Origin: an uncultured Helicobacter sp. | Lineage (GTDB): Bacteria; Campylobacterota; Campylobacteria; Campylobacterales; Helicobacteraceae | Assembly: GCF_937906905.1 (NCBI RefSeq) | Contig: NZ_CALERY010000034.1 | Coordinates: forward strand, 10,401 to 74,400 | Direction of reading: 5' to 3' | Length of the DNA stretch: 64,000 nucleotides | In this document: in pieces, positions 2,932 to 28,274 of the stretch | How the letters are laid out: every line of letters starts with the position of its first letter | Numbering within the stretch: position 1 is the stretch's first letter | The notes under the pieces: model-generated | The model's database searches: none | Seen by the model: only the letters and a program-made list of their open reading frames with translations | Told to the model about the DNA's origin: nothing | Translations under genes and position numbers: made by a program

Positions 2932-5900
2932 TTATTTCGCTACGCGCACAGCCTGCGCACTTGTGCGCGCGATAAAGTCGCTATCATACATGGCTTCGGC
3001 AAGCGCACCGCCTAGCACATATTCGCCCGTGAGTGTCGCGACACATTTGATATACACCACCTGTGATTTGCCAGAATCCACAAGCCCATTATCGAAGAAA
3101 AACATCACCCTATCGCGCAAGATATCCATATAATCCACGCGATCATTGGCTTTCATAAACGCCCTATCCCCTAGCGCCTCTTCCTTGTCCCTGCCGTTCT
3201 CTTGGCTATCGCTGCTTTGAGACTTGATTCTGGTGTTTTGGATTTCCCAGCCTGTTGGGATAATTTGGGTTAGTGCGAGATTTCTAGGCGATTTAGTCTG
3301 CGAAGTGTTTGTGATTTTTAGCTCGATGTAGAATTCATCGCCAAGCTTGATATTGCTAGGGTCAAGTGCCACTTCCTGCCCACTTTTGTCAATGGCAAAA
3401 ATCCGGCGCGATAGCTCTAGATTCTGCGATTTAGCAGGGATTGTGATTGGATTGACATCTGGCACACCTGTGCTAACTAGCGAGATATAGAGCTTGTCTT
3501 TAGCCTCCAGGGTATTTTTAGCATGAGGATCAAGCACAATGCTCATGCGCTTGTTTGTGGAGTATTCCTTGCCATTGAGGGTAAATCGCACGCCTTTGTC
3601 GCTAGAATCCGCACTCATGCTAAGTGCTAGCAGACTTGTGGCAATGTCTTGTGTGCCCAGCCAGCGCTCGTTTTCTAAAGTTTTGGCAATGGAGTGCAGC
3701 AGGGTAAGGTTTGGCGACTTATCGATGAGTGCGAGAAAATACGCACTCATGGCTTGGTTTGTCAATGCGCTACCATAGTAGTAATAGCGCGTATAGTAAT
3801 CCCACCTATCACTATAAGGCTTTTCATAGTGCTGCATATCTAGGAGATTTTCAGGCAGTTTGGCGCGGATTTCTTTAGCCACATCATCTAGCCCACTTAG
3901 CTTATAGCTCGCAGCAAGGCTTAGTTTCTCGCGCAAGGAGAGCTCTTTGAAGTGATAAGTATAAAGCTCATTCATCGCCGAGATATTTGGCGTGCCTTGG
4001 AGTGCTAGGAGAAACAGCGGGTATGCCTGCAGAGCCGGGGTAGAGCTAGATTGCACGCGTTTGGTGGCATAGGCGCTCCAGTTTTTGAGCACAGATTCTG
4101 GGACTTGATAGCCTTTTTGCTTGGCTAGGAGAAGAAAAAGCGCGGCATAGTCGCTACCATAGTCGCTAGTCTCATTAGAATCTATCCAGTAGCCAAACCC
4201 GCCATTCCCACGCTGGAATTTCACAATACGATTGATTGACCGCTGCACTCGCTCACGCACGATCTCTTCGCTCTGCTCTTTTGCGCCTTGGAGCCCTAGT
4301 AGTAGTGGCATAGTCGCAGAAACACTCTGCTCGATACAGCCATACATATAATGCAAGAGATACTCGACTTTGTCTTGATAGGAGAAAATCATCGATGGTG
4401 AGATGATGAGCTTTTGTGCGAGCGAGCCTTGGATATATTGCTGCTTGGCTTGGAGAGTCTTAGACTCTTTAGCATTGAGTGTGGAGAGCTCTTCGTCTGT
4501 TTGTGGTGGCAGAGGTGTGCTGATGTTTATGGCGTAGTGGTTGCTCTGTGTGATTGTTTGTTTTGCCACAGGAGCTTTTGCGCTATTTGTGCCACTCTTG
4601 GTAGAATCTACGCTAGATTCTGGCGATACTTCTACCTGGGCTTTCATGGTGATTGTGATATTGGCTTTGCCTATGGATTTTGGCGTGATAGCAAGGTATT
4701 GCATAAAGCGTTTGCGCTTGGGATCAAGGCTAGATTCTAGCTTTTTAACCGCGACATCGCCGCTTACTTGAATATCAACTTGACTTAGGCTTGCGCTATC
4801 TTGGGCGAGCACCTCCACAGGTGCGATGATTGTATCATCGCGCTTCATCTCCTCTGGGATATTGGAGTAGAGATTGGCGGGCTCGGCGATTGTTACATGA
4901 GATTCTGCATGTCCCACACTGCTCTCATCGCTTGCGATGAGCATGACACGCGCGCTGCCCACGAAGTTTGGCAGCTGATACTCTATAGTCGCTTTGCCGC
5001 TTTCATCGCTTACTCCGCTGGTGAAGTAGATGAGATTCTCGCGGCGCTTCTTGCTAAAATCTGCCGCCTGTCCCAGGCTCTCCTCATCTCCACCGATAAG
5101 CACACTTTGATGCACCACGCCAAATAGCCGCGCCATAAACTCGTCAAAATTATCATAGTGGATCGCTTCATCGTTGATTTTGCTATATAAGCCTTTGAGT
5201 GGGTTTGGCGTTTGGAAATTGATAATACGCAAAATCCCCTCATCAACCACCGCAAGCGTGTAAGCCATTTTGCGCTTTTTGGGGTTTTGGATTGTGATTT
5301 GGAGCTTGGAAGCTGGTTTTATGGATTCTGGTGCGATGATTTCAGGAGAGAGTGCTAGGGCTGGGTCTTGCACAGGGATACTAATCGTGCCAAAGCTTCG
5401 CTTGACTATCGCGGTTTTTCGCATATCTTGCTGTGTGTGCTTTTGCGATTTGTCAAAATCTTCGCCCGACTTATCTGGGTCTTTGGCTATGAGTGTCGCA
5501 CTTACATAGATGTTTGGCGCATATTCTTTTGTAAGCGGGATTTCATAGCTTGTTTGATTGCCAGAAATTTGGATCATCTCACTTTTTAGGATTGTATCGC
5601 CTTGGGTTAGCGTGATAATCGCCTTGCTAAAGCCTTTGGAGTTAAAGCGCACTATGGCTTTCTCGCCTGCTTCATAAGAAGATTTATCAAGCTCTAGGGG
5701 CAGCTGTGATGGGTTTGCCTTTATCGCAGCATCGCCATACGCATCTGCCACGAGCCAGACGATTTTAGGGGGATTGCTCCCATCATCTAGCTCGACAAAC
5801 ACAGAATCATAGTCCTCCACCAAGCTTGAAAGATCTTCGCGCAAGTTAAATGGCGCGCCCTTAGAAGTGATACTCCCCTCTTTTATAAGCGTGGTGTTAA

Positions 5901-10663: not shown

Positions 10664-10717
10664 AGTAGCACAATCCAGAATCCCCGGAATCCACTTTTTC
10701 AAATAACGCCCTTTTCT

Positions 10718-10785
10718 TGTCATATTGAGCCTTTAGGCGAAATATCTCCCGTCATTGCGAGCCGATGAAATCGGCGTGGCAATCC
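10718..10785 (+). repeat. REP-like structured repeat, copy a (two tandem half-units)
   Basis: 'tgtcatattgagc..gcgaaatatctc' followed by 'ccgtcattgcgag-ccgatGAAatcgg-cgtggcaatcc'. Conserved ends TCAYYRCRAG / CGTGGCAA surround a short hairpin. Confidence 0.6.
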
Positions 10786-10916
10786 ATAAACACAGCAAAA
10801 GTAAAGTAAATAAGCAAGTTTAAAGCAGATTAACACGCGTTAAGTAGGAGAGTTGAGTAAGACTAGCCCACCCCCTTAACGACCAAAGGCTTTTTCAAGG
10901 TAGGCTATGGATTATC

Positions 10917-10988
10917 CTAGTAGCACTTGACTACTACTATACATAGCAGTATAATGCCGACTAAGATTTTCTGGTAAATCTTACTCAT
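10917..10988 (-). CDS. candidate type I toxin: 23-aa hydrophobic peptide MSKIYQKILVGIILLCIVVVKCY
   Basis: Translated by hand. ATG at 10988, TAG at 10919..10917. Perfect SD AAGGAGG (revcomp of 10994..11000) sits 5 nt upstream. TGnTAGAAT extended -10 lies on the minus strand at 11059..11067. A 9-bp hairpin (11019..11043) sits in the putative 5' UTR. Confidence 0.4.
   Translation of the reverse strand: MSKIYQKILVGIILLCIVVVKCY
10927..10955 (+). promoter_or_regulatory. consensus sigma70-type promoter (TTGACT-N17-TATAAT) antisense to the small ORF; putative antitoxin sRNA promoter
   Basis: TTGACT at 10927..10932, a 17-nt spacer, then TATAAT at 10950..10955. A transcript from about 10962 would be complementary to the start codon and SD of the minus-strand peptide ORF. 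Confidence 0.4.
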
Positions 10989-11115
10989 CGTAACCTCCTT
11001 TGTGAAAAGTAGGCTACGCCAAGAGAGGCTGCAACTCTCTTGGGCAACCTCTACTGAAATTCTAACATACTTCCTAAATACTCCCTAGAATCCACTTTTA
11101 CTTAATCGTGTTTTT

Positions 11116-11170
11116 CCGTCATCACAAGATTTGCGTAGCAAATCGTGGCAAAGCAAGGCGCAGCCGCAGC
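11116..11170 (+). repeat. REP-like structured repeat, copy b (with GC-rich extension)
   Basis: 'ccgtcatcacaag-atttgcGTAgcaaat-cgtggcaaagcaaggcgcagccgcagc'. Same architecture as copy a. The 3' extension is repeated in inverted orientation at 14997..15021. Confidence 0.6.
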
Positions 11171-11203
11171 TTCTTTAGTAATCCAATCCCAAACATAAAT
11201 CTA

Positions 11204-11219
11204 TTTTTTTTTTTTTTTT
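11204..11219. repeat. homopolymeric T16 tract in the autotransporter promoter region
   Basis: Counted directly. It ends 9 nt upstream of a TACAAT -10-like box (11229..11234). Confidence 0.9.
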
Positions 11220-11276
11220 GATTTTGGCTACAATGTGGCTTTTTAAACTTTCACTTAACCTTTTTAAGGAGACATA

Positions 11277-14200
11277 ATGAAAACATCTACTCATAACACT
11301 GCCCCATATAAACGGGGGGGGGGGGGTAAATAATCTCTCTCTCAATGCTTCTACTAGATTCTCTCAAAAGGTTGCTTTATCTATCGCTTGTATCTCGTGC
11401 TTAAGTTTGACAAATCTCTATGCTATATGGCATCTAGATGCTGACAAAGGATTACAAAAAGGCTGTAAAGCTGAGATAATAAGTGGTCAAGCTTTTGTAA
11501 TTAGTCCCAAAGATGGTCAGGATAAATGTCAAGGGGACTGGACACGCTTTAGCACAAATGAAACAGGTGGAGGCTACACCCTAAGACTAAACAAGACTAC
11601 TTTAAATAACTATACTATTACAACATCTGTGGATTCAAGCAGGGTGTGGGCTAATGGTGTGCTCAATGGATCCACCATAGGGACGGCAAATATTGAAGGA
11701 AAGATGAGAGTTGAGCTTAGAGTAGAGAATGGAACCAGCACCATAACCACCCTAAATCATACAGCCAATCTACTACATCTAAAAGGTGGTGGCGGTAAGC
11801 TAGACATCAATACATTTAATCAAACCAGCGAGAATAGCGACACGCAAGTTTTCGATATAACAATAACAGACTTCAATCTTAGCGGTGGTAAAACACATCA
11901 GCTTGTAGGTGAGATTACCAACCTAAATATCACTAATGGGACATTCTATCAAGGTAAGCATAATGGCGACCCTAGTGGCTATAGTGATAGCCAAATCACA
12001 GGCGGCACTATCACAAAGGTGGATTTAAGCGGCAATGGTGCGTTTGAGCAAATTAGAGGCAGTGTAACTGACTTCAATCAGTCAGGCGGCACTGCCACGC
12101 AAAAAGGCGGCACGATAGGAACTGCCAATCTCAATGGCGGTAACTTTACCCAATCAGGTGGAGAGATCACTACTGCTAAACTCTCCGGTGGCACATTCAC
12201 CCACAATGGCGGCACACTTAACAATGTCGTGCTTAAAGCTGGTGGCAGTGGCAGCACATTTGTCAATGGCACAAATTCTGCCTTTGCTAACATCACCCAA
12301 GAGGGTGGCAATCACACTATCATAGGTAAGGTTGCTAAATTTACTCTAGCGAGTGGTTCCTTTACCAACAACGGCTCTATCGAAACACTCACCACCAGCA
12401 CTACCACCACAAGAGCCCTCCGCAATGCCCAAGCTGCCGCTACCAACCACATCACCAACAACGGCACAATCGACAAGCTAGAGCTTACTAAAGACGCTGA
12501 TAGCGTAACCAATAATGCTGTGTATAACACAGGCGGTGGCTTAGCAAGTGGTATCATCAAAGAGCTACATGTAACAAGCGGCAATGCCACCATAAACACC
12601 CTAAATGGTGTAGGACAAGGGACAGCAGGTAAAATAGAGCCCCATACACTCTCTAATATCAACATCACCAAAGACGCTAAACTCACCGTTGATACCCTAA
12701 GCGTAGGACTCAAAGGCAACCAAGCTATAGAGAGAGTAACAATAAATAATAATACAGGTGGTAATGGTGGCAACAAAGAATTTGCCGTCAATAAAATCCA
12801 AGTAACCTATCTTGATGGCAGCTTTGACCCTGCAAAAAGCATTAGCAAAAATCTCACAGACTATGTATCATCTGGCACCAGCCATAGCTATGTCGATAAC
12901 AATTCTAAGCCCACCTTTGAATCAAGCCCCGAGCTCCAAGGCATAGGTGTGAAGTTTAATCCCGATGGCACCCCTATCTTTGAGGTAGAAGCCTCCTTGG
13001 CTGCAAGTATGACAAGCGTAGTCGTGCGCCAATCTATGCGCCGAAAAATGCTTATAGACACCTATCTCGCAGAACAAAACAGAAGAAGTTTGAAAAACAA
13101 AGAGCGCAGAACCGAGCAGCGCATAGAAGCAGCCACCCTAGCAGATGCAAGAGCCCAGTATCAAAAAGACCTAGCCAAATACAAGCTAGACTTAGCCAAA
13201 TGGGATAAGCTTGCTAGCACCAAAGAGAACAAAGCCCTAATCGCCAAATACGAGCAAGAGGACAAAGCCTACCAAAAAGCCCTAGAGCAGTATCAAAAAG
13301 ACAAGGCAAAATGGGATAAGCTTAGTGAAAAAGATAAAGCAAAGCTTTCAGGCAGCCCCACACCAGCTCCCATAGCTCCTAAAGAGCCAAAAGCTCCTAT
13401 AAAGCCCAATGTCAAGCCAGATCACAAAGACTATAAAAAGCTAATGGCTGCCTATGATAAAGCACAAAAAGAGCATAAAAACGCCCTAGCCAAATATCAA
13501 AAAGATAAAGCCAAATACGACAAAGACAAAGCCAAATGGGATAAAGACAATCAAAAGCTAGCACAAGCTAGCAAACTAGCTCCAGTAGAGCCAAAAGCTC
13601 CTAAAGCTCCCGTGCGCCCAAATCTCAAGCCAAACCACAAAGACTACAAAAAGGCTATGGCAGATTTCACCAAAGCACAGCAAGCACACAAAGCAGCCCT
13701 AGCCAAGTATGAAAAAGATCTAGCCAAATACAAGCTAGACAAAGCCAAATGGGACAAAGACAATCAAAAGCTAGCTGCAAGCTCTAAGCCAGCTCCCATA
13801 GCTCCTAAAGAGCCAAAAGCTCCTATAAAGCCCAATGTCAAGCCAGATCACAAAGACTATAAAAAGCTAATGGCTGCCTATGATAAAGCACAAAAAGAGC
13901 ATAAAAACGCCCTAGCCAAATATCAAAAAGATAAAGCCAAATATGACAAAGACAAAGCCAAATGGGATAAAGACAATCAAAAGCTAGCACAAGCTGGCAA
14001 AGCCCCAGTAGAGCCTAAAGCTCCTACTAAGCCTAAAATCCTAGCCAGCAAGCCAGAAATGCCACAAGAGCCTAAGCTTGGAGAGATAAGTGCAGAGCTA
14101 CTAGCTAAGCATAAAGTCCAAGGGGATTTCTTTATCCGTGCCTATGGTGGGACAGGCTCACATAAAGCAACCAATGGCGCACAAACTAACTCTTGGAGTG

Positions 14201-14970: not shown

Positions 14971-14996
14971 AAGGCGTTGGCTTTCTAAAGAAACCT

Positions 14997-15051
14997 GCTG
15001 CGGCTGCGCTTGCTTTGCCACGAAAATTCTTGCGGATTTTCTCGCAAGTGA
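14997..15051 (-). repeat. REP-like structured repeat, copy c (inverted relative to copy b)
   Basis: The reverse complement reads 'tcacttgcgag-aaaatccgcaagaatttt-cgtggcaaagcaagcgcagccgcagc'. It matches copy b over 'gtggcaaagcaag(g)cgcagccgcagc' with one indel. Confidence 0.6.
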
Positions 15052-27043: not shown

Positions 27044-27120
27044 TGGCGGAGCGGACGGGGCTCGAACCCGCGACCCCCTGCGTGACAGGCAGGTATTCTA
27101 ACCAGCTGAACTACCGCTCC
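27044..27120 (-). tRNA. tRNA-Asp (GUC)
   Basis: The reverse complement folds as a cloverleaf: GGAGCGGTAGTTCAGCTGGTTAGAATACCTGCCTGTCACGCAGGGGGTCGCGGGTTCGAGCCCCGTCCGCTCCGCCA. Anticodon loop is CTGTCAC. Confidence 0.95.
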
Positions 27121-27157
27121 AAAGGAGATATGTAGAATCTGCAAAAGCAAATATAAA

Positions 27158-27233
27158 TGGTGGTCGCTACAAGGCTCGAACTTGTGACATCCACCTTGTA
27201 AGGGTGGCGCTCTACCAACTGAGCTAAGCGACC
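27158..27233 (-). tRNA. tRNA-Val (UAC)
   Basis: Reverse complement GGTCGCTTAGCTCAGTTGGTAGAGCGCCACCCTTACAAGGTGG...GCGACCACCA. Anticodon loop is CTTACAA. Confidence 0.95.
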
Positions 27234-27266
27234 GAAAAAACGCAAGAACAAAAAGAAGAGAAAAAG

Positions 27267-27341
27267 TGGTGACCCCTAGGGGATTTGAACCCCTGTAGCC
27301 ACCGTGAAAGGGTGGTATCCTAACCACTAGATGAAGGGGCC
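27267..27341 (-). tRNA. tRNA-Glu (UUC)
   Basis: Reverse complement GGCCCCTTCATCTAGTGGTTAGGATACCACCCTTTCACGGTGG...GGGGTCACCA. Anticodon loop is CTTTCAC. Confidence 0.95.
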
Positions 27342-27354
27342 ACTACTTAATCAA

Positions 27355-27430
<76 letters not shown>

Positions 27431-27470
27431 AAAAATAAAAGCGAGATTGTAAGATTTTTGCCGCGCTTTG

Positions 27471-28274
27471 TCAAGGGTTGGAGCCAGATTCAAGATATTT
27501 TATAAGGATTTCTATGGCTTTGGTGCTGGCTTGAAGCTGGATATATTCGCGTGTGCTAAGTCGATATGATAGCGTGCCATCTCCGCTAACCATACTAGAA
27601 TCCAAAAGCTCTTGCTGCTTTAGAAGCCCAGCTTCTGTCTTAGCTTCCTTAGTGGTTTTTACTTTGTCGTGGAAAAAGTGCCGCTCGATAAGCGGCAGCT
27701 TACCGCGTGCCTGCACTCCTAGAAACACGCACCCTACGGGCTTTTGCTCACTTCCACCGCTTGGACCTGCTACTCCAGAGCTCGCTAGCGCCACATCTGC
27801 GCCAAATCTCTCCAGCGTGCCAGAGAGCATTTGTGATACAACAGGCTCGCTCACTGCGCCAAAATCCTCTAGCACATCGGGCTTTACACCCAACATCTCG
27901 CGCTTTATGTCATTGGCATAACTAACCACTCCGCCGACAAATACGCTAGAAGCGCCATTTATTCTAGTGAAGCGATAGCTTAGTAGTCCGCCTGTGCAGC
28001 TCTCCGCAGTTGCGAGTTTAAGCCCTAGATTTTCTAGTCGAGCCAGTGCTATAGCTTCCAGAGTGTGCCCAAACCCTATATTAGTGCCAAAAAACCCACA
28101 TGCCCAGCGCTCAAATCGCTCTAGCTCGGCATGCTCGCCCCAAATTTGCGCACATGCCCCTCTATCCTCCCACACTAGCCCAAATCGAGCAATCATCTCC
28201 GCACATAAAATTCGAGCAGAATCCATATCCATATTAAGAAAGAACGCTAATTTTTGTGATAGTTGTTGTTGCAC
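27471..28274 (-). CDS. CinA-family protein / nicotinamide-nucleotide amidohydrolase (PncC domain)
   Basis: 267 aa. 'LATAESCTGGLLS...GGVVSYAN..K' is the CinA C-terminal domain signature. Confidence 0.75.
   Translation of the reverse strand: MQQQLSQKLAFFLNMDMDSARILCAEMIARFGLVWEDRGACAQIWGEHAELERFERWACGFFGTNIGFGHTLEAIALARLENLGLKLATAESCTGGLLSYRFTRINGASSVFVGGVVSYANDIKREMLGVKPDVLEDFGAVSEPVVSQMLSGTLERFGADVALASSGVAGPSGGSEQKPVGCVFLGVQARGKLPLIERHFFHDKVKTTKEAKTEAGLLKQQELLDSSMVSGDGTLSYRLSTREYIQLQASTKAIEILIKYLESGSNP

What the first reader, a model, noticed from the sequence alone, without database searches (positions are those of the whole stretch)
10870..11067. Candidate type I toxin-antitoxin module in the pbpC-autotransporter spacer
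On the minus strand there is a 23-codon ORF (10988-10917) encoding MSKIYQKILVGIILLCIVVVKCY. This is one hydrophobic helix flanked by Lys residues.

Signals upstream of this ORF:
- A perfect AAGGAGG SD 5 nt upstream.
- An extended -10 (TGTTAGAAT, revcomp of 11059-11067).
- A 9-bp perfect hairpin in the leader (11019-11043).

Inside the ORF, on the plus strand, lies a near-consensus promoter: TTGACT-N17-TATAAT (10927-10955). Its transcript would run antisense across the start codon and SD.

This is the geometry of type I TA loci such as aapA/IsoA in H. pylori and ibs/Sib or tisB/IstR in E. coli. The peptide does not resemble the AapA sequence I recall, so it may be a new family. The ORF is too short for the supplied ORF track, so standard annotation may miss it.
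Basis: inference. Interest (0 to 1): 0.7.

Follow-up and report, generated by a model that had tools for sequence, protein, structure and literature searches.

The report
Unannotated type I toxin-antitoxin module
The 23-codon ORF and its internal antisense promoter are a real, sharply bounded ~260-nt mobile module. [quoted passage not shown]

Summary
The evidence for function comes from comparison with related sequences.

- **Discrete unit.** The module spans window ~10838-11098 (minus strand). It recurs almost unchanged at three unrelated chromosomal sites in the H. canis group. Against a 97% relative it is 252/252 identical, while its flanks and pbpC third codon positions are ~94% identical.
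- **Diverged relatives.** Related copies occur in H. cinaedi and H. pullorum prophages, C. jejuni/coli temperate phages and Campylobacter plasmids.
- **Conserved parts.** All members checked keep a 19-24 codon hydrophobic ORF with the core IILLC-h-h-[IV]-VK-x-[YNS]. Every member examined for it keeps an antisense promoter TTGAC[T/A]-N17-TA[T/A]NAT inside the ORF.
- **RNA fold.** In the toxin mRNA the SD and start codon pair with the 3' UTR about 130 nt downstream. Compensatory changes support 22-26 of 62 pairs (0/500 shuffles reach this).
- **Disrupted copies.** In two relatives a separate ~117-nt repeat element interrupts the ORF, as happens to chromosomal hok genes.
- **Family placement.** It works like aapA/IsoA and hok/Sok, but neither the peptide profile nor a covariance model detects genuine AapA loci.

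Toxicity and transcription remain untested.

The parts
10838..11098 (-). Whole module (mobile unit): promoter, toxin mRNA and embedded antisense gene
   Evidence: Boundaries come from the alignment with the H. zhangjianzhongii copy, which has unrelated flanks. Covariance model R1 hits 10836-11057 at 215.8 bits. The module is 252/252 identical to L002 while its flanks are ~94% identical.
11059..11067 (-). Toxin mRNA promoter, extended -10 (TGTTAGAAT). The TSS is inferred near 11052.
   Evidence: Sequence read. A TAnnAT -10 at the same distance from SL1 is present in all aligned members, mostly with TGn (anchors). The TSS itself is inference.
11008..11052 (-). 5' stem-loop SL1 (18-pair helix; 9-bp perfect core at 11019-11043, loop UUGCAGC)
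   Evidence: In helix 1, 10-11 of 18 pairs carry compensatory changes and 98% of cells are paired.
11005..11017 (-). Candidate upstream anti-SD (GUAGCCUACUUUU) that can form a local hairpin with the SD
   Evidence: This alternative pairing appears in the H. zhangjianzhongii MFE fold and in the 3'-trimmed fold. It is analogous to aSD1 of aapA3 (PMC6733600). Inference.
10994..11000 (-). Shine-Dalgarno AAGGAGG
   Evidence: AAAGGAGGTTA is invariant in the six-member alignment.
10917..10988 (-). Toxin ORF, 23 codons plus stop: MSKIYQKILVGIILLCIVVVKCY
   Evidence: The frame is open in all eight members examined in detail while other frames carry stops, and second codon positions are the most conserved. 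In the 15-peptide alignment I, L, L, C, V and K are invariant.
10962..10983 (-). SL2 (UAAGAUUU-ACCAGA-AAAUCUUA) just after the AUG. It forms when the 3' partner is removed.
   Evidence: trimmed mRNA; complementary hairpin in the antisense RNA. The arms are invariant and the loop varies across members.
10927..10955 (+). Antitoxin (antisense RNA) promoter TTGACT-N17-TATAAT, inside codons 12-21
   Evidence: TTGAC[T/A]-N17-TA[T/A]NAT with a fixed 17-nt spacer is present in all eight Helicobacter members and in the six Campylobacter/IMG-VR representatives examined.
10962..11052 (+). Predicted antisense RNA (~85-90 nt) covering codons 1-9, the SD and SL1. Both ends are inferred.
   Evidence: The start follows from the -10 position. 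The RNA folds into hairpins complementary to SL2 and SL1 (z = -3.5). No canonical terminator was found, so the 3' end is inference.
10864..10907 (-). 3'-UTR hairpin
   Evidence: In helix 7, 7-9 of 10 pairs carry compensatory changes.
10846..10863 (-). 3' partner of the long-distance interaction: anti-start GUCUUACUCA (10863-10854) and anti-SD ACUCUCCU (10853-10846)
   Evidence: Helix 3 is 100% paired in 7 sequences, with 3 compensated pairs from two lineages. Helix 2 is 90-92% paired, with G-C/G-U changes on the 3' side only.

Best explanation
This is a type I toxin-antitoxin module of the aapA/IsoA-hok/Sok design.

**Proposed mechanism**
1. A constitutive promoter (-10 at 11064-11059) makes a toxin mRNA of about 210-220 nt on the minus strand.
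2. [quoted passage not shown]
3. Once complete, the mRNA locks into an inert fold. The SD and the first codons pair with the 3' UTR (10863-10846), so ribosomes cannot load.
4. 3' trimming would free the SD and let two 5' stem-loops form (SL1 and SL2).
5. A strong promoter inside the ORF (10927-10955, plus strand) makes an antisense RNA of about 85-90 nt. Its two hairpins are the exact complements of SL1 and SL2. It would capture the activated mRNA by loop-loop contacts, block translation and trigger duplex cleavage.
6. If the short-lived antisense RNA is lost, the 23-aa single-helix peptide is made and damages the inner membrane, arresting growth.

The family rides on prophages and plasmids. 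The window's copy is a chromosomal acquisition in a variable spacer.

**Shown here:** the anatomy, a unit that is discrete and has spread between genomes, conservation of the ORF and of both promoters, and a covariation-supported fold that sequesters the SD and start codon.

**Inferred:** the transcripts and their ends, the 3' processing, the kissing-loop step, RNase III cleavage, toxicity and the biological role.
For: **Anatomy in the window.**

**Discrete, conserved, mobile unit.**
- The same ~260 nt lies at three unrelated loci. These are the pbpC spacer (window and L002), a different context in H. zhangjianzhongii, and upstream of rnpB in H. canis.
- Window versus L002 is 252/252 identical in the module, against 94.4% and 93.8% in the flanks and 93.3% at pbpC third positions.
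- The 87% relative has an empty 118-nt spacer.

**Family.**
- H. cinaedi prophages (up to 4 copies in one 46-kb prophage), H. pullorum prophages, 70 IMG/VR prophage loci including C. jejuni/coli temperate phages, and C. helveticus and C. peloridis plasmids.
- The ORF is kept at 19-24 codons with an invariant I.LLC...VK core, and second codon positions are the most conserved.
- The antisense promoter keeps a fixed 17-nt spacer in all members examined for it.

**Covariation.**
- Six-sequence MAFFT alignment: 62 pairs, 97.3% paired, 22 compensated against 6.7 +/- 1.9 in shuffles (0/500). Slid controls give 2-6.
- Seven-sequence model alignment: 26 compensated against 10.6 +/- 2.3 in shuffles.
- The start-codon:3'UTR helix is always paired, with compensation in two lineages.

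**Agreement with known biology.**
- A genuine H. bizzozeronii aapA mRNA folds with the same logic.
- Published aapA1/aapA3 work describes the inert full-length mRNA, 3' processing, the two kissing stem-loops and the metastable anti-SD hairpins (PMC5416894, PMC6733600).
- ORF disruption by an insertion element in two copies parallels the chromosomal hok genes hokA, hokC and hokE (cited in PMC6733600).
Against: - There is no experimental evidence for either transcript, for translation or for toxicity.
- No intrinsic terminator is predicted for either RNA, so both 3' ends are guesses.
- The antisense promoter overlaps the most conserved codons. Its conservation therefore cannot be separated from peptide conservation.
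- The SD:anti-SD helix itself shows only one-sided (G-C/G-U) variation, because the SD is invariant.
- The H. canis-group copies are nearly identical to each other. The covariation signal comes from about 5 independent lineages.
- The 23-aa peptide is at the short end for spanning a membrane and lacks the basic C-terminal pair that AapA1 needs for toxicity.
- Some members (Hcin_c, H. pullorum, Campylobacter) have a short 3' UTR ending in a stem-loop and seem to rely on a local anti-SD. The long-distance mechanism is therefore not universal in the family.
Confidence: 0.78

Rival explanations
1. A non-toxic small membrane protein of mobile elements, for example a prophage-encoded modulator of lysis, a superinfection-exclusion factor or a transporter accessory peptide. 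Its synthesis would be tightly gated by an antisense RNA and mRNA folding, without addiction or killing activity.
For: Many members sit in prophages, some beside the portal gene. The peptide is very short and lacks the C-terminal basic residues that AapA1 needs (PMC8309996). Small membrane proteins with regulatory roles are common (PMC12648545).
Against: Several features are the recognised hallmarks of type I toxins rather than of ordinary small proteins (PMC6733600). These are the layered repression (inert primary transcript plus a near-consensus antisense promoter), multiple copies within one prophage, presence on plasmids, scattered chromosomal copies and insertional inactivation.
Confidence: 0.12
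2. A structured sense/antisense pair of non-coding RNAs (phage or plasmid regulatory RNAs) in which the small ORF is incidental and never translated.
For: RNA structure is strongly conserved on both strands. IsoB/NikS shows that degenerate type I loci can become pure sRNA genes (PMC8322730). Two copies have a truncated ORF yet keep the rest of the module.
Against: The frame stays open at 19-24 codons across about 25% nucleotide divergence while other frames are closed. Substitutions preserve hydrophobicity, with second positions the most conserved. A consensus SD at fixed spacing is invariant in the six-member Helicobacter alignment, and the six Campylobacter/IMG-VR representatives keep an SD-like GGTG/GGAGG element before the start. 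The peptide core I.LLC...VK is invariant in 15 distinct peptides.
Confidence: 0.05
3. This particular chromosomal copy is a silent relic. It is sequence-intact but no longer expressed or needed, left behind by a phage or plasmid recombination event in a spacer that collects such elements.
For: The spacer is variable. The 87% relative has none, the 97% relative has a disrupted copy plus hicAB, and the module is flanked by dispersed repeats.
Against: The window copy has every functional element intact and is identical in peptide to the H. zhangjianzhongii copy. It has 0 substitutions in 252 nt against about 15 expected at the local neutral rate. That argues for either constraint or very recent arrival, not long decay.
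Confidence: 0.05

Closest known systems
[quoted passage not shown] 2017, PMC5416894; Masachis et al. 2019, PMC6733600)
   Same: - Same order of bacteria.
- Similar mRNA size (about 210-250 nt).
- 5' stem-loop, then SD, then a short ORF.
- The SD is sequestered by a 5'-3' long-distance interaction, with a candidate upstream metastable anti-SD.
- The antisense promoter lies about 32-33 nt inside the ORF, so the antisense RNA (about 80 nt) covers the first codons, the SD and the 5' UTR.
- Two complementary stem-loops are suited to kissing.
- Carried on chromosomes and prophages, some copies next to the portal gene, and occurring in multiple copies.
   Different: - The peptide is 19-24 aa rather than 30-34 aa.
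- It has no K-HGKNS...YLKIS motif and no basic KR tail, and has its own invariant core I.LLC...VK.
- No similarity is found by phmmer, BLASTP or hhalign (0.1%).
- The covariance model of this family finds nothing at genuine aapA loci (best 4.8 bits, off-target).
- In the collections searched, AapA was found only in gastric species and this family only in enterohepatic Helicobacter and Campylobacter.
hok/Sok (plasmid R1 and E. coli chromosome)
   Same: An inert full-length mRNA closed by a 5'-3' long-distance interaction, activation by 3' trimming, an unstable antisense RNA, carriage on mobile elements, and chromosomal copies inactivated by insertion elements (established knowledge; cited in PMC6733600).
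   Different: - Hok is about 50 aa and is translated through coupling to the overlapping mok reading frame. Here the SD serves the toxin ORF directly.
- Sok targets the leader 5' of the ORF. Here the antisense RNA starts inside the ORF.
- There is no Pfam Hok match.
ibs/Sib (E. coli)
   Same: Very short (18-19 aa), almost purely hydrophobic toxin ending in an aromatic residue. The antisense RNA is encoded opposite the ORF (established knowledge; T1TAdb paper PMC8594479).
   Different: Sib spans the whole ibs ORF and no 5'-3' long-distance lock is described. There is no Pfam Ibs match for any of 14 members. The taxonomic range is different.

Membership tests
Type I toxin-antitoxin system (generic) | Small hydrophobic, single-helix peptide ORF with its own SD | tested here: met
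   The ORF is 23 aa with a hydrophobic core flanked by Lys, and AAGGAGG lies 5 nt upstream. The ORF is conserved in the family members checked.
Type I toxin-antitoxin system (generic) | Cis-encoded antisense RNA gene overlapping the toxin translation-initiation region | tested here: inconclusive
   A near-consensus promoter of the right orientation is conserved with fixed spacing in all members examined for it. No transcript data exist, and the promoter overlaps conserved codons.
Type I toxin-antitoxin system (generic) | Primary toxin transcript folded so that the SD is occluded | tested here: met
   MFE folds and the RNAalifold consensus pair the SD and start codon with the 3' UTR, with covariation support. 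The duplex energy is rare against background. This is computational only.
Type I toxin-antitoxin system (generic) | Peptide toxic when expressed without the antitoxin; antitoxin RNA neutralises it | not testable with these tools
   This needs inducible expression with and without antisense-promoter mutations.
aapA/IsoA family | Peptide homologous to AapA (K-HGKNS...YLKIS...basic C-terminus) | tested here: not met
   phmmer against PDB does not recover AapA1. BLASTP gives no alignment at E<=100. hhalign of a 15-member profile against a 4-member AapA profile gives probability 0.1%.
aapA/IsoA family | mRNA detectably related in sequence and structure to aapA mRNAs | tested here: not met
   Model R1 finds members as distant as H. 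pullorum and Campylobacter phage and plasmid copies. It finds nothing at H. bizzozeronii or H. salomonis aapA loci, even with filters off. No Rfam family matches.
aapA/IsoA family | Architecture: 5'-3' LDI locking the SD, antisense RNA fully inside the mRNA and overlapping the ORF start, two complementary stem-loops | tested here: met
   compared with a genuine aapA fold and with PMC5416894.
aapA/IsoA family | Listed among the structure-based aapA/IsoA homologues of Arnion 2017 (Table S4) or in T1TAdb | not testable with these tools
   The supplements of both papers are not held. The main texts name no enterohepatic species.
Hok, Ldr, Ibs, Fst, TisB and other Pfam/NCBIfam type I toxin families | Match to the family HMM | tested here: not met
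   Pfam on the window peptide and on 14 members gives only chance hits (FAM163, E = 0.18). NCBIfam gives no hit.

The most novel reading that the evidence does not exclude
The module represents an undescribed, evolutionarily separate type I TA family with I.LLC...VK peptides of 19-24 aa. It would be the enterohepatic-Helicobacter and Campylobacter counterpart of aapA/IsoA. It is carried by temperate phages and conjugative plasmids of major food-borne and blood-borne pathogens. It would serve prophage or plasmid maintenance or abortive infection, with chromosomal copies spreading between species.

A further twist is that a specific ~117-nt structured repeat element has landed at the same codon of the toxin ORF in two different genomic contexts. 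That hints at targeted disarming of the toxin.
Probability: 0.5. Interest if true: 0.6.

Novelty: new member of a known kind. Interest (0 to 1): 0.5.

Why it matters
Type I TA systems are under-annotated because their ORFs fall below gene-caller limits. This module is unannotated in every record inspected: NCBI assemblies, 40-plus curated Helicobacter prophage records, an isolated Campylobacter phage genome and plasmids.

If functional, it adds a toxin family to Campylobacter jejuni/coli and to enterohepatic Helicobacter (H. cinaedi, H. canis, H. pullorum). I found no type I system described for these organisms outside the aapA/IsoA catalogue. It also gives their temperate phages and plasmids a candidate maintenance or abortive-infection module.

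The family is a second, independent example of the 5'-3' long-distance SD lock with an ORF-internal antisense promoter. That makes it useful for comparative work on how such mRNAs fold. The covariance model and the peptide-core pattern made here would allow systematic annotation.

Tried and rejected
- **Rfam** at gathering and at permissive thresholds on the window, L002, L024 and L029 gave only tRNAs, RNase P and chance hits.
- **Pfam, NCBIfam and PDB** searches with the peptide gave nothing meaningful.
- **Plasmid searches.** tblastn of the peptide and of AapA peptides found nothing, probably because the low-complexity filter masks them. The same happened for phage tblastn with a member peptide. 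DNA queries worked instead.
- **SD-less N-terminal pattern.** This returned only membrane anchors of long giant-virus proteins, so it was rejected as background.
- **Genome scan.** 16 of the 18 hits were N-termini of long secreted proteins.
- **Simple deletion or insertion between the two alleles.** The junctions do not fit a clean target-site duplication or a direct-repeat deletion, since 9 nt are replaced by 117 nt.
- **Insert as a ribozyme or intron.** There is no Rfam match, and independent intergenic copies exist in H. cinaedi prophages.
- **Insert in plasmids.** No match.
- **Literature.** Peptide-core strings and searches for type I TA in enterohepatic Helicobacter or Campylobacter prophages found no description. 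The supplements of Arnion 2017 and T1TAdb, and the Masachis & Darfeuille review, are not held.
- **AapB/C/D peptide sequences** were not obtainable, so membership in those small H. pylori families is untested.

Full report
**1. Observation**

- On the minus strand the ORF 10988-10917 encodes MSKIYQKILVGIILLCIVVVKCY.
- AAGGAGG (11000-10994) lies 5 nt upstream of the ATG.
- TGTTAGAAT is the reverse complement of 11059-11067.
- A 9-bp perfect hairpin lies at 11019-11043.
- On the plus strand TTGACT-N17-TATAAT lies at 10927-10955.

These features exceed chance.
- It is the only SD-preceded, strongly hydrophobic mini-ORF in the window.
- Only two promoter matches of at least 11/12 with a 17-nt spacer occur in the 64 kb, against 0.39 expected. 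The other lies immediately upstream of the tRNA cluster.
- No curated RNA family matches.

**2. What the single sequence adds**

Folding the minus-strand RNA from the inferred start (about 11052) gives a very stable structure, with z = -4.6. In it the SD and the first codons are not free.
- AGGAGGU (10999-10993) pairs with ACUCUCCU (10853-10846).
- UGAGUAAGAU (10987-10978) pairs with GUCUUACUCA (10863-10854).

The duplex energy is -22.8 kcal/mol. It is matched or beaten by 10 of 2986 random genomic segments and 18 of 3000 shuffles.

An upstream segment (11017-11005) can alternatively mask the SD in a local hairpin.

When the 3' partner is removed, two 5' stem-loops are predicted: SL1, and SL2 at 10983-10962. 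The antisense RNA predicted from the internal promoter folds into their exact complements.

**3. Source and neighbours**

The window is identical to NCBI contig CAUWAU010000029.1 of assembly GCA_963557195.1. Its closest named relative by PBP1C is Helicobacter canis, at 64% amino-acid identity. The module lies between a pbpC-like gene and a large repetitive ORF.

**4. Close relatives**

*The 97% relative (L002/L003).* It carries the module at the same place, with about 117 nt replacing 9 nt after codon 15. The peptide becomes MSKIYQKILVGIILLFS*. The insertion also splits the antisense -35 from its -10. The same spacer holds a hicAB-like pair.

*The 87% relative.* It has an empty 118-nt spacer.

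*Conservation outside the variable segment.* Window and L002 are 252/252 identical in the module. The two flanks are 94.4% and 93.8% identical, and pbpC third positions are 93.3% identical. About 15 differences would be expected at that rate. By my arithmetic, 0.94^252 is about 2e-7.

*Genome-collection scan.* A degenerate SD-plus-peptide pattern found two further copies.
- H. zhangjianzhongii has an intact, peptide-identical module in unrelated flanks.
- H. canis has a copy upstream of rnpB (RNase P RNA, 258 bits). It carries the same kind of insertion at the same site and has lost its 3' end.

*Boundaries.* Comparison of contexts bounds the unit at about 10838-11098. That span runs from the promoter to the 3' partner of the long-distance helix.

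**5. A large family**

DNA searches of the phage collection found diverged homologues at 75-85% identity.
- Predicted H. cinaedi prophages carry them, with up to four copies in one 46-kb prophage.
- H. pullorum prophages carry them too.

A pattern built on the conserved C-terminal core found 70 IMG/VR prophage loci with 25 distinct reading-frame translations. The 48- and 77-aa translations are artefacts of my upstream start choice.

The low-GC loci belong to C. jejuni/coli temperate phages. L078 is 94% identical to Campylobacter phage vB_CJ12660_3PH123, where the module is unannotated.

Copies also sit on a C. helveticus plasmid and on the conjugative C. peloridis plasmid pPEL1.

Representative peptides:
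- MVKISQIILIAIILLCVIVVKCN
- MSKITTKILVIILLLCLLIVKCY
- MSKILTKILALIILLCIIVVKCS
- MHYQTAVIIILLCLFIVKAY
- MTTYHQIIVIIILLCIIIVKAY
- MNHQILVIIILLCIVVVKAY

In a 15-peptide alignment I, L, L, C, V and K are invariant.

The frame is open in all members examined while the other frames carry stops. Second codon positions change least, which is the signature of selection for hydrophobicity.

The antisense promoter TTGAC[T/A]-N17-TA[T/A]NAT keeps its 17-nt spacer in every member examined for it.

None of seven peptides is in a 15-billion-protein collection.

**6. RNA structure test**

RNAalifold on six members independently reproduces the window's fold.

| Measure | Six-sequence MAFFT alignment | Seven-sequence model alignment with L084 |
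|---|---|---|
| Cells paired | 97.3% | 97.0% |
| Pairs compensated, of 62 | 22 | 26 |
| Same in shuffles | 6.7 +/- 1.9 (0/500 reach observed) | 10.6 +/- 2.3 (0/500 reach observed) |
| Same in slid controls | 2-6 | 3-10 |

The seven-sequence alignment is fitted to the model, so it leans towards the structure.

- The start-codon:3'UTR helix is 100% paired in both alignments. In the seven-sequence alignment it has three compensated positions arising in two lineages. One example is AUGAGUAAGAU:GUCUUACUCA becoming AUGGUUAAGAU:GUCUUAACCA.
- The SD:anti-SD helix varies only on the 3' side (G-C to G-U), because the SD is invariant.
- Some members (Hcin_c, H. pullorum, Campylobacter) have a short 3' UTR ending in a stem-loop and appear to use a local anti-SD instead.

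**7. The insertion**

The ~117-nt segment is an independent repeat.
- In H. cinaedi it lies outside the module and at several other intergenic sites.
- It has a hairpin with compensatory changes.
- It has no Rfam match.

Its presence inside the ORF in L002 and H. canis is therefore insertional disruption, as known for chromosomal hok genes (PMC6733600).

One point is unexplained. The site is the same in two genomic contexts, and the two inserts are only 88% identical while the surrounding module is at least 98% identical.

**8. Mechanism**

[quoted passage not shown] Experiments on those systems established the following (PMC5416894, PMC6733600):
- an inert 253-nt full-length mRNA locked by a 5'-3' interaction;
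- activation by 3' trimming;
- two stem-loops that kiss the roughly 80-nt antisense RNA;
- RNase III cleavage of the duplex;
- transient upstream anti-SD hairpins.

Every sequence-level element of that scheme has a counterpart here. A genuine H. bizzozeronii aapA mRNA folds with the same logic.

Transcription, RNA ends, processing and toxicity are inferred.

**9. Comparison and membership**

Genuine AapA peptides are clearly related to each other but not to this family. The set compared was AapA1 from PDB 6GIG plus copies from H. bizzozeronii and H. salomonis prophages.
- BLASTP gives no alignment.
- hhalign gives 0.1% probability.
- Model R1 detects members as distant as Campylobacter phage and plasmid copies but scores nothing at aapA loci.
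- No Pfam or NCBIfam toxin family matches.

I therefore do not file it as an AapA member. It is a separate family with the same design.

Two observations leave room for very distant common ancestry.
- Both families occur in Helicobacter prophages, some copies beside the portal gene.
- Their host ranges did not overlap in the collections searched.

I could not check whether Arnion's structure-based list or T1TAdb already includes such loci, because the supplements are not held. The accessible literature, including a 2025 survey of Helicobacter prophages, mentions only type II systems there. It contains none of the peptide-core strings.

**10. Verdict**

- Novelty: a new member (a new toxin family) of a known kind of system.
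- Interest is moderate. The mechanism is not surprising, but the family is widespread, unannotated and backed by unusually clean comparative evidence.

Noticed in passing
L002 12549-12656; L029 ~4735-4845; L038 9295-9421, 17870-17989, 30347-30392, 32906-33069; L040 3001-3058: A structured repeat element of about 117 nt. It has a central hairpin with compensatory changes and a second long hairpin with a GNRA-type loop on the opposite strand, and no Rfam match. It is intergenic in H. cinaedi prophages. It is also inserted at the same codon of the toxin ORF in two different genomic contexts. The two inserted copies are only 88% identical although the surrounding module is at least 98% identical. 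It may be MITE-like, and site preference is possible.
   Followed up: partly
window, genome-wide; e.g. 10681-10698 and 11082-11099: The 9-mer GGATTCTAG/CTAGAATCC occurs 19 times in the 64-kb window against about 0.5 expected. It is similarly enriched in the relatives' loci. One copy forms the left edge of the module. It could be a dispersed repeat or an uptake- or recombination-related motif.
   Followed up: partly
L002 12980-13394 (the same pbpC-downstream spacer as window 10664-11406): The 97% relative carries a HicB-like antitoxin gene (Pfam HicB_lk_antitox) overlapping a 67-aa ORF that I take to be hicA-like without testing it. It sits in the spacer next to its disrupted copy of the module. 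The 87% relative has an empty 118-nt spacer. The spacer looks like a hot spot for TA or accessory insertions.
   Followed up: partly
window 11204-11220 and 11313-11325: A poly-T(17) tract lies upstream of an SD-preceded ATG at 11278, and a poly-G(13) tract lies just after it. The large ORF listed from 11407 probably starts at 11278 and would be switched on and off by poly-G length. The NCBI contig ends at this tract.
   Followed up: no
window ~10755-10790, 11118-11150, 14977-15023; L002 12361-12396, 13644-13678: A dispersed repeat of about 35 nt (CCACGATTTGCTACGCAAATCTTGTGATGACGG and variants) forms a hairpin. It flanks the module on both sides and recurs elsewhere.
   Followed up: no
L024 3650-3800 (H. 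zhangjianzhongii): A tandem array of a short unit (about 29 nt by my reading; CGCTTGTTTTCTAAAGAAACTTCGCTTCG) lies immediately downstream of that species' copy of the module.
   Followed up: no
L044 1195-1300 and 1472-1580; L045 1195-1290: Genuine aapA-like modules lie in H. bizzozeronii and H. salomonis prophages. They are beside the portal gene, as are several of this family's copies in H. cinaedi prophages. They encode MKKHGKNSTRVFYLKISVFGLKFVLKRKRVKKA, MKKHGKNSVRLFYLKISVWGLKFVLKRKREKSKK (two in tandem) and MRKHGKNSVRVFYLKISVFGLKFVLKRKKVK.
   Followed up: partly
window 27047-27474: A cluster of four tRNA genes on the minus strand is preceded by a near-consensus promoter (TTGACA-N17-TACAAT, 27474-27446).
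   Followed up: no
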